This document shows, in pieces, positions 59,101-62,100 of a DNA stretch of 64,000 nucleotides; position 1 is the first letter of the stretch; the number at the start of each line of letters is the position of its first letter. Location: the NCBI RefSeq assembly GCF_003334815.1, contig NZ_QOWO01000004.1; one strand, given 5' to 3'. Position numbers: made by a program. This DNA is from Escherichia coli (GTDB lineage Bacteria > Pseudomonadota > Gammaproteobacteria > Enterobacterales > Enterobacteriaceae).

Positions 59101-62100
59101 TCGCAACCTGTGCCATCGAGTTCTCCACTTAACGCTGAATAAACGTTAAGTATAGAAGGCGCATATCATCAGCGTTTGTAACCCCCGCCCAACGCACCAG
59201 TGAGTTGAATGGAGGCATCCAGCCACTGCCCTTGCAATAACAGGCCATTGGCCCGCTCACGCAGCGCGGGGATTCTGGCTTCGCTGACGCGGGAACCAGC
59301 AATGATGCCCGCGTTAAAGCGCGCCTGCGCAAGACCTACCACACGCAAGGCATCGCGCTCAATTTGCGCCTGATGCTGGTTTTTCTCCGCCAGTGTCTGA
59401 ACCTGACTGGCTGCCCGCGCCACGTCATTCACCGCTTCAACCACCGCTTTGTTGTAGCTGGCGATAGACAAGTTGCTTTCGGCTTTTGCGATATCGAGAT
59501 TGGCGTTAAGACGACCACTATCGAAAATGGGTAGCGTCAGGCCTGCCGTAACGCCCATTTGCTGCGCGGAATGACGGAACAGATCGCTTAAGTGCAACGC
59601 ATCCTGTTGCAGGAAGGCCATCAGGTTGATGTCAGGATAAAATGCCGCTTTTGCCGCATCAATGGTGCTTAGCGATGACTCAACGTACCAGTGCGCCGCC
59701 TGCAAATCTGCCCGCCGGGCCAGTAAGGAGTACCCCAGTTCATCAGGAAGCTGGCTTGCCACTTTCGGCAACGCGACCGGTTTAAGCTTCAATGACTTTG
59801 TCTGGTTATTTGTAAGTGCGCTTAACCGTGCCTCAATAATTTTCATTTTCCCCGCGACATCGTTGAGCTGCTGCCGGGTTTTGCTGGCATTAATATCGGT
59901 TTCCACACCTTCAACTGAAGAAGTAATCCCGTTCTGATATAGCTGGCGATCGGTCGCGATAATGGTGTTCTGCTCTTTTTCTATTTGCTGCAAGACCGTG
60001 TTTAACGCCGCCTGGGTTTGCCACTCCCAGTACAGGCGGGCTACGCTGCCAGCCAGCAATTGGCGGGTTTGCTCGCGTTCCGCCGCCCGTGCTTTAACCG
60101 TACCCAGGCGGGCAGTAACCTCCGCCCGATTCTTTCCCCAGATATCGAGATGCCAGCCCGCCGTTAAGCCAAAAGTACCGTTGGTGTACCACGGGCCGGT
60201 CGTACCTGCGGCCGGATCGTTCAGAGCAAACGGCCCCATTAAGCCTTCTGCCGACATTTTTTGCCGCTCCATATCCGCCGAAAAGTCGATCTGCGGACCA
60301 TCCTGAGTGGCAACTGCCTTCGCCTGGGCTTCAGCTAGCTGAATGCGCTGTTCAGCCACCTGCATATCCGGTGCGTTCTGTAGTGCATTGTTAATTAAGG
60401 AAGTGAGTTGATTATCGTGATACTCCAGCCACCATTGGCTGTCTGGCCAACCATTTTTCAGCGCCGTGGGTAATGCGGTGTCAACTTGTGCAGCGGGCGT
60501 TTGCTGGCTTAACGCCTGGCGGGTTTCATGCATAGGCGCACACCCGGCCAGCATCAGTAACAGCGGAAAACAGGCGATGGCTGGATAAAAGGAATCACGA
60601 TTCATGGGGGAATAATCAGGTAAGAAAAGGTGCGCGGAGATTACCGTGTGTTGCGATATATTTTTTAGTTTCGCGTGGCAATACATCAGTGGCAATAAAA
60701 CGACATATCCAGAAAAATATACACTAAGTGAATGATATCTTCCGATTTATCTTAATCGTTTATGGATAACGGCAAAGGGCTTCGTTTTTTCCTATACTTA
60801 TTCAGCACTCACAAATAAAGGAACGCCAATGAAAATTATACTCTGGGCTGTATTGATTATTTTCCTGATTGGGCTACTGGTGGTGACTGGCGTATTTAAG
60901 ATGATATTTTAAAATTAATTAATGTCATCAGGTCCGAAAATAACGAGAATATTTCAGTCTCTCATCCTGTTGCGCTCCTGTCATGTGCATTGCTTCATAT
61001 AATCACTGGCGCAAGGAGCGCGCAGGGGGCGGCCAATCGCCGCCGCCCCCTGCACCCCCGGGCTCTGGCGAACAAAATCGCCGCTGCGCGGTGCCCTCGA
61101 CTTATCCCTTACGGCTACCGGGTCGGGCGCGAGGTAACATCCCTGTAAAACGCGCCCTCAGCCCACATCCATGTGGGCTGCCCCGGCCTTCAGGGAACGC
61201 CTCGGCAATTTTGACGCCACCAAACAACCGTGCGGCCTATTGATAAAGAGCTAACACATTGTCAAAAAACATCACTATGGTTTTTTAGAGTTTCTCGATA
61301 TCAATTGCCTGAATAGCCCTTGCAATATCAGGGGAATTATTCAACACCCGAACATGCTGAAATAATTCCGTTGCTTCATCGTATTCTTTACGCAAATAAC
61401 TCAACCACTGTTTAATCCGCGCAACGTGATATAACCCGGTATCGCCCTGCTTTTCCAGACGGGTATATTTTTGCAGCAAAGCAACCACCTCCGGCCACGG
61501 CATTCGCGGTTCGTTATATTTTACCACCCGGCTCAGGTTGGGAATATTGAGCGCCCCGCGACCAATCATCACTGCGTCGCAGCCGCTGATCGCCATGCAT
61601 TGTTGCGCGCTCTGCCAGTCCCAGATTTCACCGTTGGCAATCACCGGAATATTCAGCCGCTGGCGAATATCGCCAATCGCCTGCCAGTCAATATGCTCCG
61701 CGCGGTAACCCTGCTCTTTCGTCCGCCCATGCACCACCAGCTCCGTAGCGCCAGCCTGTTGAACCGCATCGGCGATTTCAAATTTCTTCTCACCGCTGTC
61801 CCAGCCCAGACGCACTTTCACGCTGACGGGCAAATGCGCCGGTACAGCTTCACGCATCGCTTTTGCACCCTGGTAGATGAGTTCAGGATCTTTGAGTAAC
61901 GTCGCCCCGCCGCCGCTACCGTTAACCGTTTTCGACGGGCAGCCGCAATTGAGATCCACGCCCCAGGAACCTAACTCCACCGCACGGGCGGCGTTCTCTG
62001 CCAGCCATTGTGGGAACTGACCTAACAACTGCACGCGCACCAGCGTACCAGATGGTGTCCGGCTGGCGTTTTGTAGCTCAGGGCAAATGCGATGAAAGAC

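What the first reader, a model, noticed from the sequence alone, without database searches (positions are those of the whole stretch)
61010..61210. GC-rich palindromic extragenic element between yohP and dusC
About 200 bp of unusually high GC content with nested inverted repeats (cagggggcggc...gccgccgccccctg; gcccacatccatgtgggc) in an otherwise AT-rich intergenic region. It yields a spurious proline-rich ORF (60983..61243). It does not match the REP consensus seen elsewhere in the window. It may be a Box C / RSA-type repeat or a structured RNA.
Basis: seen in the sequence. Interest (0 to 1): 0.3.

Follow-up and report, generated by a model that had tools for sequence, protein, structure and literature searches.

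The report
Known TRIP1c / RRS-dusC replication-gap repeat
This GC-rich stretch is the already published TRIP1c / RRS-dusC element of E. coli, a conserved, heavily folded repeat reported to make the replication machinery leave a short single-stranded gap; the one new point here is that its core fold resembles the orphan "TwoAYGGAY" RNA motif.

Summary
A block of 0.59-0.73 GC with perfect nested inverted repeats lies between yohP and dusC, and it is wider than reported (60969-61241).

It is not Box C, RSA or REP. By position, length and sequence it is TRIP1c (Rudd 1999; Li 2024), which is the same as RRS-dusC, the "replication risk sequence" (Pham 2023 and 2024; Kusi-Appauh 2026).
- It ends 43 nt after the dusC stop codon.
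- It holds the published 20-nt G-quadruplex motif once, on the minus strand, which GC skew marks as the lagging-strand template.
- It equals the K-12 lysO copy at 218 of 219 positions.

The published mechanism is that the folded G-rich strand blocks Okazaki-fragment synthesis and leaves a transient gap.

- The family occurs across Enterobacteriaceae, with 1 to 14 or more copies per genome.
- Its four helices show strong compensatory covariation.
- G·U pairs favour the G-rich strand.
- G-quadruplex potential is lost in some lineages while the hairpins persist.
- The core has the architecture of Rfam TwoAYGGAY. The window scores 29.7 bits, below the threshold of 43. Two Pluralibacter homologues score 46.3 and 51.9 bits.

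Verdict: already known. The TwoAYGGAY link is a modest new lead.

The parts
60969..61241 (.). Whole TRIP1c repeat (273 bp).
   Evidence: Paralogues at aqpZ-lysO and putP-efeU, and homologues in other genera, align from GTTGCGCTCC to ...GTGCGG. The right end is 43 nt from the dusC stop codon (61285-61287). The left end is 363 nt from the yohG/mdtQ start. Both distances match Li et al. 2024.
61004..61225 (.). RRS-dusC core, the roughly 222-bp near-perfect inverted repeat of RRS-lysO (boundaries approximate).
   Evidence: The MG1655 lysO copy is identical to the window over 61004-61222 except at 61207. The 222-bp length and the name come from Pham et al..
61040..61059 (-). Published G-quadruplex-forming 20-mer GGGGGTGCAGGGGGCGGCGG.
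   Evidence: One exact match in the window, with 0 expected by chance. The sequence is as printed in Pham 2024. The G4Hunter maximum of 1.84 falls here.
61022..61053 (-). Hairpin with a 12-bp perfect stem and 8-nt loop; it overlaps the G-quadruplex motif.
   Evidence: Repeat found. This is helix 10: 6 of 12 pairs change on both sides across genera, and 84% of cells are paired.
61073..61213 (-). TwoAYGGAY-like domain: a long closing stem (61073-61088 with 61198-61213, and extensions) around two hairpins.
   Evidence: cmscan match to RF01731 at 61076-61213 on the - strand, covering model positions 1-168, 29.7 bits against a threshold of 43. Helices 2, 3 and 5 covary.
61159..61180 (-). Hairpin 1, with terminal loop AUGGAU on the - strand.
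   Evidence: Repeat found. This is helix 6: 8 of 9 pairs change on both sides, and 95.9% of cells are paired.
61125..61157 (-). Hairpin 2, with terminal loop AGGGAU on the - strand.
   Evidence: Present in the fold. These are helices 7 and 8: 7 of 10 pairs change on both sides.
60972..61021 (.). Terminal stem (60972-60979 GCGCTCCT with 61014-61021 AGGAGCGC) enclosing a hypervariable stretch of about 35 nt.
   Evidence: Repeat found. This is helix 11: 5 of 10 pairs change on both sides (GCGCTCC/GGAGCGC, CGTTCAC/GTGAACG, CGTTCGC/GCGAACG). The loop differs even among near-identical copies within one genome.
60983..61243 (+). Spurious 86-aa ORF.
   Evidence: Listed. No conserved frame or strand among 60 copies.
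60829..60912 (+). yohP, the left neighbour; it ends 56 nt before the element.
   Evidence: ORF; MG1655 annotation.
61285..62232 (-). dusC (yohI), the right neighbour; its stop codon lies 43 nt from the element and it runs in the same direction as the G-rich strand.
   Evidence: ORF; MG1655 annotation gives 948 nt.

Best explanation
The element is TRIP1c, the same thing as RRS-dusC. It is one of two near-identical, oppositely oriented "replication risk sequences" that flank the E. coli terminus region.

Shown in the literature: when the replication fork unwinds the element, the G-rich strand (the window's minus strand) is briefly single-stranded because it is the lagging-strand template. It folds at once into a G-quadruplex plus several very stable hairpins. 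The lagging-strand polymerase cannot copy it, so the Okazaki fragment is abandoned and a gap of up to about 2 kb is left. That gap is coated by SSB and RecA.

Proposed by those authors, not shown: the transient gap acts as a swivel that relieves topological stress near the Ter macrodomain.

Inferred here: selection maintains the whole multi-hairpin fold of the G-rich strand, and not only the G-quadruplex.
For: Identity:
- The right end lies 43 nt from the dusC stop, the left end 363 nt from the yohG start, and the length is 273 bp. All three match the published TRIP1c.
- The published G4 20-mer is present once, on the - strand.
- 218 of 219 positions are identical to the MG1655 lysO copy.
- One SNP separates the window from MG1655 2229122-2229394.

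Orientation: + strand GC skew is negative in all eight 8-kb blocks of the window. The - strand therefore has the leading-strand composition, which makes it the lagging-strand template. This agrees with Pham 2024.

Fold:
- z-scores of -5 to -6 against shuffles.
- 80.2% of cells are paired, against 38-43% when the partners are slid.
- 54 pairs change on both sides, against 27-35 in the slid controls.
- The covariation score is 0.264, against 0.07-0.10, and 0 of 500 shuffles reach it.
- G·U pairs number 30 on the G-rich strand and 7 on the C-rich strand, counted in the 35 pairs predicted on both strands.

Published experiments:
- RecA and SSB peaks on the lagging strand disappear when the RRS is deleted.
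- Pol I, II and IV stop at the G4.
- The element works wherever it is placed and is conditionally essential.
- Single-molecule assays show a gap at nearly every replisome encounter.
Against: - The family is not confined to two Ter-flanking copies. E. coli has up to 10 places per genome, one K. pneumoniae record has 13, and Pluralibacter gergoviae has at least 14.
- A rough local GC-skew proxy puts the G-rich strand on the lagging-template side in only 20 of 55 copies. The proxy is noisy.
- G4Hunter falls to 0.84-1.12 in P. gergoviae, Pseudescherichia vulneris, Escherichia sp. ESNIH1 and RIT714, while the hairpins persist.
- The topological function is a hypothesis of the authors.
- Covariation on one strand would fit an RNA just as well.
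Confidence: 0.8

Rival explanations
1. The element encodes, or is part of, a structured non-coding RNA of the TwoAYGGAY class. [quoted passage not shown] This could coexist with the DNA-level activity.
For: - The cmscan alignment to RF01731 covers the full model on the - strand, at 29.7 bits.
- Homologous copies in Pluralibacter gergoviae pass the Rfam threshold of 43 bits: 51.9 and 46.3 bits.
- All sub-threshold family matches are on the same strand.
- Covariation is strong and G·U pairs are in excess on that strand.
- dusC is co-oriented with that strand, and no terminator-like site lies between dusC and the element.
- Li 2024 also suggested that the repeat is transcribed.
Against: - The window copy is 13 bits below the gathering score.
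- No promoter-like or terminator-like site was found on that strand.
- Sequence outside the element is unrelated among paralogues, so they share no external promoter.
- Orientation relative to neighbouring genes is not fixed.
- The lysO copy lies antisense to both of its neighbours.
- There is no sequence-level similarity to four Psychromonas TwoAYGGAY sequences from Weinberg's published alignment.
- TwoAYGGAY itself has never been shown to be an RNA.
- Single-stranded DNA tolerates G·T pairs too.
Confidence: 0.25
2. It is a selfish, MITE-like intergenic repeat that spread through Enterobacteriaceae. The hairpins would be recognition structures for a mobilising enzyme acting on single-stranded DNA, and gap formation and inversions would be side effects.
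For: - Copy number varies from 1 to 14 or more per genome, and copies within one genome are near-identical, as in Entomohabitans and Enterobacter ENT03.
- Many Pluralibacter copies sit at contig ends.
- Copies are almost never found between divergent genes: 1 of 44.
- Tandem or convergent pairs occur.
- Short end motifs, TTGCGC...GCGCAA, hint at terminal inverted repeats in some copies.
- The repeats mediate large inversions (Li 2024).
Against: - E. coli copies sit at five fixed loci.
- No target-site duplication or consistent terminal repeat was found.
- No associated transposase was seen.
- No copies occur in phages, and the "plasmid" hits are mostly mis-filed chromosomal pieces.
- Loss of both RRS copies is tolerated only with compensating changes.
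Confidence: 0.2
3. It works mainly on transcripts. It would be a GC-rich, bidirectional hairpin block between the convergent genes yohP and dusC that stops read-through or protects mRNA 3' ends, as REP/BIME elements do.
For: - It lies 56 nt after yohP and 43 nt after dusC, with no other terminator-like site.
- Across the family it nearly always follows at least one gene's 3' end.
- The hairpins are very stable on both strands.
Against: - No T-run follows the hairpins.
- A conserved 270-nt multi-helix fold with conserved loop sequences is far more than a terminator needs.
- This would not explain the published replication phenotypes.
Confidence: 0.12
4. It is a Box C or RSA repeat.
For: Only general features agree: GC-rich, palindromic, intergenic and repeated.
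Against: It matches a different named family (TRIP1) by position, length and sequence. It occurs about 3 times per E. coli genome. From memory only, Box C is about 56 bp and present in tens of copies, and RSA is about 152 bp. Neither consensus could be tested here.
Confidence: 0.03

Closest known systems
TRIP1 repeats (Rudd 1999; Li et al. 2024, PMC10888264), copy TRIP1c
   Same: Same locus, same boundaries and same length (273 bp). It is paralogous to TRIP1a (aqpZ-lysO) and TRIP1b (putP-efeU). It is 62-65% GC.
   Different: Nothing differs; this is that element.
RRS, replication risk sequence, copy RRS-dusC (Pham et al. 2023 PMC10287960; 2024 PMC11194060; Kusi-Appauh et al. 2026 bioRxiv)
   Same: It contains the exact published G4 20-mer. 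It is near-identical to the lysO copy over about 222 bp. [quoted passage not shown]
   Different: The RRS as defined omits about 35 nt at the left (the variable loop and outer stem arm) and about 16 nt at the right, which are conserved parts of the repeat.
TwoAYGGAY RNA motif (Rfam RF01731; Weinberg et al. 2010)
   Same: A long closing stem surrounds two hairpins whose terminal loops read A(U/G)GGA(U/C). It is multi-copy within genomes. Homologues in Pluralibacter pass the Rfam threshold.
   Different: The window copy scores 29.7 bits against a threshold of 43. Its second loop is AGGGAU, not AYGGAY. It carries two extra helices: the G4 hairpin and the outer stem with the variable loop. It shows no primary-sequence similarity to four Psychromonas TwoAYGGAY sequences from Weinberg's alignment. 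Whether TwoAYGGAY is an RNA at all is unknown.
REP/BIME elements of E. coli
   Same: GC-rich, palindromic, intergenic repeats placed after gene ends, with effects on DNA topology (gyrase binding) and on transcripts.
   Different: Different sequence: no REP consensus lies in the element. REP units are much shorter, about 35 nt against 273 nt, and occur in hundreds of copies rather than about 3.
Neisseria gonorrhoeae pilE G-quadruplex
   Same: According to the RRS authors, it is the only other described bacterial sequence that programs gap formation through a G4.
   Different: It is a short G4 tied to pilin antigenic variation, not a 270-nt multi-hairpin repeat.

Membership tests
TRIP1c / RRS-dusC | Position: 43-44 bp downstream of the yohI (dusC) stop codon, 363 bp from the yohG start, length 273 bp. 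| tested here: met
   Conserved block at 60969-61241; dusC stop at 61285-61287; yohG ATG at 60603-60605 on the - strand.
TRIP1c / RRS-dusC | Contains the published G4 sequence GGGGGTGCAGGGGGCGGCGG. | tested here: met
   One exact match at 61040-61059 on the - strand.
TRIP1c / RRS-dusC | Near-perfect inverted repeat of about 222 bp shared with the copy next to lysO. | tested here: met
   Window 61004-61222 differs from the MG1655 lysO copy at one position.
TRIP1c / RRS-dusC | The G4 strand is the lagging-strand template. | tested here: met
   + strand GC skew is negative in all 8 blocks of the window. This is an inference from composition, not a replication assay.
TRIP1c / RRS-dusC | Triggers post-replication ssDNA gaps and RecA/SSB loading. 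| not testable with these tools
   Known from the literature only.
TwoAYGGAY (RF01731) | Score at or above the Rfam gathering threshold of 43 bits. | tested here: not met
   The window scores 29.7 bits, E = 0.12. Homologous Pluralibacter copies score 51.9 and 46.3 bits.
TwoAYGGAY (RF01731) | Two terminal loops, each containing AYGGAY. | tested here: inconclusive
   Loop 1 is AUGGAU, which fits. Loop 2 is AGGGAU, where G replaces Y. AGGGAY loops also occur in Weinberg's published alignment.
TwoAYGGAY (RF01731) | A long P1 stem closing the two hairpins. | tested here: met
   Arms at 61073-61088 and 61198-61213, plus extensions. Helix 2 has 22 pairs, 85% paired across 60 copies.
TwoAYGGAY (RF01731) | Is expressed as an RNA. 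| not testable with these tools
   No expression data were available, and no promoter-like or terminator-like site was found.
REP/BIME | REP consensus GCCKGATGCGRCG. | tested here: not met
   Six matches elsewhere in the window, none within 60969-61241.
Box C / RSA | Match to the family consensus. | not tested
   Neither consensus was available in the tools or in the searchable papers.
MITE | Terminal inverted repeats and target-site duplications. | tested here: inconclusive
   Some copies carry TTGCGC...GCGCAA-like ends. No consistent duplication was seen, and no empty site was examined.

The most novel reading that the evidence does not exclude
The RRS/TRIP1 elements and the orphan Rfam motif TwoAYGGAY are one structural family, and what selection maintains is the multi-hairpin fold of one strand and not the G-quadruplex.

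If so, one of two things follows. Either TwoAYGGAY "RNAs", found in gamma-proteobacteria, Clostridia and gut metagenomes with no function assigned since 2010, are single-stranded-DNA elements that program replication gaps. Or the RRS phenotypes depend partly on a structured RNA.

No searchable paper that mentions TwoAYGGAY also mentions RRS or TRIP1.
Probability: 0.3. Interest if true: 0.65.

Novelty: already known. Interest (0 to 1): 0.3.

Why it matters
The element matters in its own right. It is one of only two described bacterial sequences that program single-strand gaps during replication. It is reported to be conditionally essential, and it mediates 1.3-Mb inversions between its copies.

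- The fold covaries across genera, while the G-quadruplex is dispensable in some lineages.
- The core looks like TwoAYGGAY.
- Together these suggest concrete mutants: compensatory hairpin changes against G-run changes.
- They also suggest a possible function for an orphan Rfam family.

Tried and rejected
- Protein-coding reading of the 86-aa ORF: rejected. The open frame changes strand and phase among copies.
- REP/BIME: rejected.
- A second copy inside the 64-kb window: none found.
- Phage origin: no match among 50,697 phage records.
- Plasmid origin: the hits are chromosomal fragments or chromosomes filed as plasmids.
- Sigma-70 promoter or intrinsic terminator in or next to the element: none found. 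The TATAAT at 60998-61003 has no usable -35 and is not conserved in the MG1655 lysO copy.
- Literature search for RSA, Box C and IRU: only irrelevant papers.
- Literature search for transcription data on the yohP-dusC spacer: nothing useful.
- The 18-mer scan of 100,044 species genomes also returned about 30 non-enterobacterial loci, such as Alistipes and Anaerolineales. nhmmer found no element in them, so they are chance matches.
- nhmmer of the family profile against four Psychromonas TwoAYGGAY sequences from Weinberg's alignment: no hit, so the link is structural only.
- Local GC skew as a proxy for replication direction around 55 copies: too noisy to decide. It gave 20 copies on the lagging-template side against 35.
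- Weak Rfam matches to AgvB and RyhB near the element (E = 0.44-0.79): treated as chance.
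Full report
**1. The observation**

The window carries yohP (60829-60912, +) and dusC (61285-62232, -) as convergent genes. Between them, GC content rises to 0.59-0.73, against 0.33-0.41 on both sides. The stretch folds much better than dinucleotide shuffles on either strand, as RNA or as DNA, with z-scores of -5.05 to -6.01. The 86-aa ORF exists. Among 60 related copies the longest open frame jumps between strands and phases, so it is an artefact of GC richness. REP-like sites occur elsewhere in the window but not here. The conserved block is wider than reported, at 60969-61241.

**2. It is a repeat, and it has a name**

A distant-mode search of 5426 complete E. coli genomes found the sequence in all of them, with a median of 3 places per genome and a maximum of 10. 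Records filed as plasmids supplied other copies. One lies between aqpZ and lysO, one between putP and efeU, and there are copies in Klebsiella, with 13 places in one K. pneumoniae record. Aligning five copies showed shared sequence from GTTGCGCTCC to ...GTGCGG and unrelated sequence outside it.

A literature search then identified the element. It is TRIP1, found by Rudd in 1999 and surveyed in 6725 genomes by Li et al. 2024. The same element was rediscovered as the "replication risk sequence" (RRS) by Pham, Cox, Goodman and colleagues.

The published description of TRIP1c is 273 bp, 43 bp downstream of the yohI/dusC stop and 363 bp from the yohG start. That fits 60969-61241 exactly. The published G4 sequence GGGGGTGCAGGGGGCGGCGG occurs once, at 61040-61059 on the minus strand. 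The MG1655 lysO copy is identical to window 61004-61222 except at one base, which locates the 222-bp RRS. The window is collinear with MG1655 2226000-2232153 over window 57846-64000, with five single-base differences there, one of them at 61100 inside the element. RefSeq annotates nothing at this place.

**3. What is known about how it works**

All of this is from the literature.
- ssGap-seq shows strong RecA and SSB peaks on the lagging strand, starting at each RRS and trailing off over 1.4-2.5 kb. The peaks vanish when that RRS is deleted.
- On M13 templates, Pol I, II and IV stop at the G4 of the G-rich strand. The element causes gaps wherever it is inserted.
- Both copies can be removed only together with an amplification or with replacement copies. 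Supercoiling patterns change genome-wide.
- A 2026 preprint shows by single-molecule replication that a gap forms at nearly every encounter when the G4 strand is the lagging-strand template. With the complementary strand in that position, a gap forms in about two-thirds of encounters.
- The proposed purpose, a transient swivel that relieves topological stress near Ter, is the authors' hypothesis.
- Li et al. document 156 rearrangements between TRIP1 copies, including a 1.3-Mb inversion between TRIP1a and TRIP1c.

In the window, plus-strand GC skew is negative in all eight 8-kb blocks. The minus strand, which carries the G4, therefore has leading-strand composition and is the lagging-strand template, as published.

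*Distribution.* An 18-mer from the core was scanned against one genome from each of 100,044 species, and the hits were checked with nhmmer. This gave 84 matches, all in Enterobacteriaceae: Escherichia, Klebsiella, Raoultella, Enterobacter, Citrobacter, Kluyvera, Atlantibacter, Pluralibacter, Entomohabitans, Silvania, Mangrovibacter, Pseudescherichia and Leclercia. Pluralibacter gergoviae has at least 14 copies and Entomohabitans about 10. Several loci hold tandem or convergent pairs.

*Covariation.* In an alignment of 60 distinct copies, I projected the window's minus-strand fold onto the alignment columns.

| Measure | Observed | Partners slid by 1-3 columns |
|---|---|---|
| Cells paired | 80.2% | 38-43% |
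| Pairs with changes on both sides | 54 | 27-35 |
| Covariation score | 0.264 | 0.07-0.10 |

None of 500 shuffles reached the observed percentage paired, number of cells changed on both sides, or covariation score; 4 reached the count of pairs changed on both sides, and the count of further pair types was not above the shuffles. The well-supported helices are:
- the long closing stem;
- hairpin 1, with 8 of 9 pairs compensated;
- hairpin 2;
- the hairpin that overlaps the G4;
- an outer stem (GCGCTCC/GGAGCGC, CGTTCAC/GTGAACG, CGTTCGC/GCGAACG).

The outer stem encloses a loop of about 35 nt. That loop is hypervariable even among near-identical copies within one genome.

*Which strand.* In the 35 pairs predicted independently on both strands, G·U pairs number 30 on the G-rich strand and 7 on the C-rich strand. 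This points to the G-rich strand as the folded one. It cannot distinguish RNA from single-stranded DNA.

*G-quadruplex potential.* G-richness at the G4 site is kept in most copies, with G4Hunter at or above 1.36 at the same place. It falls to 0.84-1.12 in P. gergoviae, P. vulneris, Escherichia sp. ESNIH1 and RIT714, where the hairpin is kept by compensatory changes. The fold therefore looks more constrained than the quadruplex.

*TwoAYGGAY.* The only Rfam match in the region is a full-length but sub-threshold alignment to TwoAYGGAY (RF01731) on the minus strand, at 29.7 bits against a threshold of 43. Two P. gergoviae homologues pass the threshold, at 51.9 and 46.3 bits. Other genera score 30-36 bits, always on the same strand.

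Weinberg et al. describe TwoAYGGAY as two hairpins with AYGGAY loops closed by an often very long P1 stem. It is multi-copy in Psychromonas and common in gut metagenomes, and no function is known. AGGGAY loops occur in their alignment too. The architecture matches the RRS core.

A family profile finds no primary-sequence similarity to four Psychromonas sequences from that alignment. The link is therefore structural, and common descent is unproven. None of the papers that mention TwoAYGGAY deals with RRS or TRIP1.

**5. Weighing the readings**

Identity with TRIP1c/RRS-dusC is as certain as sequence can make it. The DNA-level gap mechanism rests on published experiments and fits the orientation and fold seen here.

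Against it being the whole story:
- Many genomes carry far more than two copies.
- A rough GC-skew proxy does not show a family-wide rule that the G-rich strand is the lagging-strand template (20 copies for, 35 against, and noisy).

The RNA reading draws on the covariation, the G·U bias and the TwoAYGGAY resemblance. It also draws on dusC running into the element with no terminator in between. However:
- No promoter or terminator was found.
- Paralogues share no flanking sequence.
- Orientation relative to neighbouring genes is not fixed.
- The lysO copy is antisense to both of its neighbours.

A MITE-like history is plausible. Copy number varies, copies sit after gene ends and are found between divergent genes in only 1 of 44 cases, and many lie at contig ends. 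No clear terminal repeats, target duplications or partner enzyme were found.

**6. Verdict**

The finding is real and its coordinates are nearly right, but the family named was wrong. The element is already known and experimentally studied. The covariation analysis, the partial dispensability of the G4 and the TwoAYGGAY resemblance are modest new leads.

Noticed in passing
window 59169-60695 (- strand); difference at 60458: mdtQ (yohG) is an intact 508-aa ORF in the window. MG1655 annotates it as a pseudogene. The window has one extra base at 60458 relative to MG1655, so the window is not MG1655 itself.
   Followed up: partly
window 60980-61013; alignment A1 columns 251-287: The roughly 35-nt loop inside the outer stem is hypervariable, even among six otherwise near-identical copies in Enterobacter sp. 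ENT03. Each copy seems to carry its own small hairpin there. No explanation was found.
   Followed up: partly
L112 about 315-375; L075 about 6550-6590; L078; L033 9410-9450; L058: In Citrobacter, Atlantibacter, Entomohabitans and Enterobacter, the left-end motif is repeated two or three times just outside the element. The motif is GGAAnnnTTCCGTTCRC or GGTTGCGCTC. In C. freundii it forms three tandem 19-nt units.
   Followed up: no
L081 1070-1162; L014 623-715; L043 2101-2194: Some Pluralibacter and Silvania copies carry a roughly 93-nt insertion in the hairpin-2 region. It matches Rfam AaHKsRNA22 (RF02902) at 31-40 bits against a threshold of 39.8. It contains its own AGGGAU-loop hairpin.
   Followed up: partly
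L004 2964-3215 and 3402-3652; L075; L077; L078; L083; L058; L086: Copies often occur in pairs 100-350 bp apart. The pairs are tandem in Klebsiella, Entomohabitans and Mangrovibacter, and convergent in Atlantibacter and Citrobacter koseri.
   Followed up: no
L117 (MG1655 putP-efeU spacer); L003 2976-3248: The K-12 TRIP1b copy has lost the whole TwoAYGGAY-like core by an internal deletion. Full-length putP copies in other strains carry a 2-nt insertion inside the G4 motif (GGGGGTGCACAGGGGG). That would explain why a search for the G4 20-mer finds only two sites in K-12.
   Followed up: partly
window 60829-60912 (yohP): A 2025 paper (PMC12542507) reports that the 27-aa membrane protein YohP induces nucleoid condensation. 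Its gene ends 56 nt from an element reported to affect genome topology. This may be a coincidence.
   Followed up: no
window 1785, 8247-8317, 51430, 58252-58291: REP-like sequences occur here, with two inverted pairs typical of BIMEs. They are unrelated to the element.
   Followed up: no
L009, L010, L013, L115 right flanks: REP-like sequences of the type GTAGGTCGGGTAAGCG(C/T)AGCGCC lie within about 60-90 nt of the right end of several Pluralibacter and Klebsiella copies. ENT03, Entomohabitans and Mangrovibacter copies share lineage-specific extensions of 70 nt or more beyond the E. coli right boundary.
   Followed up: no
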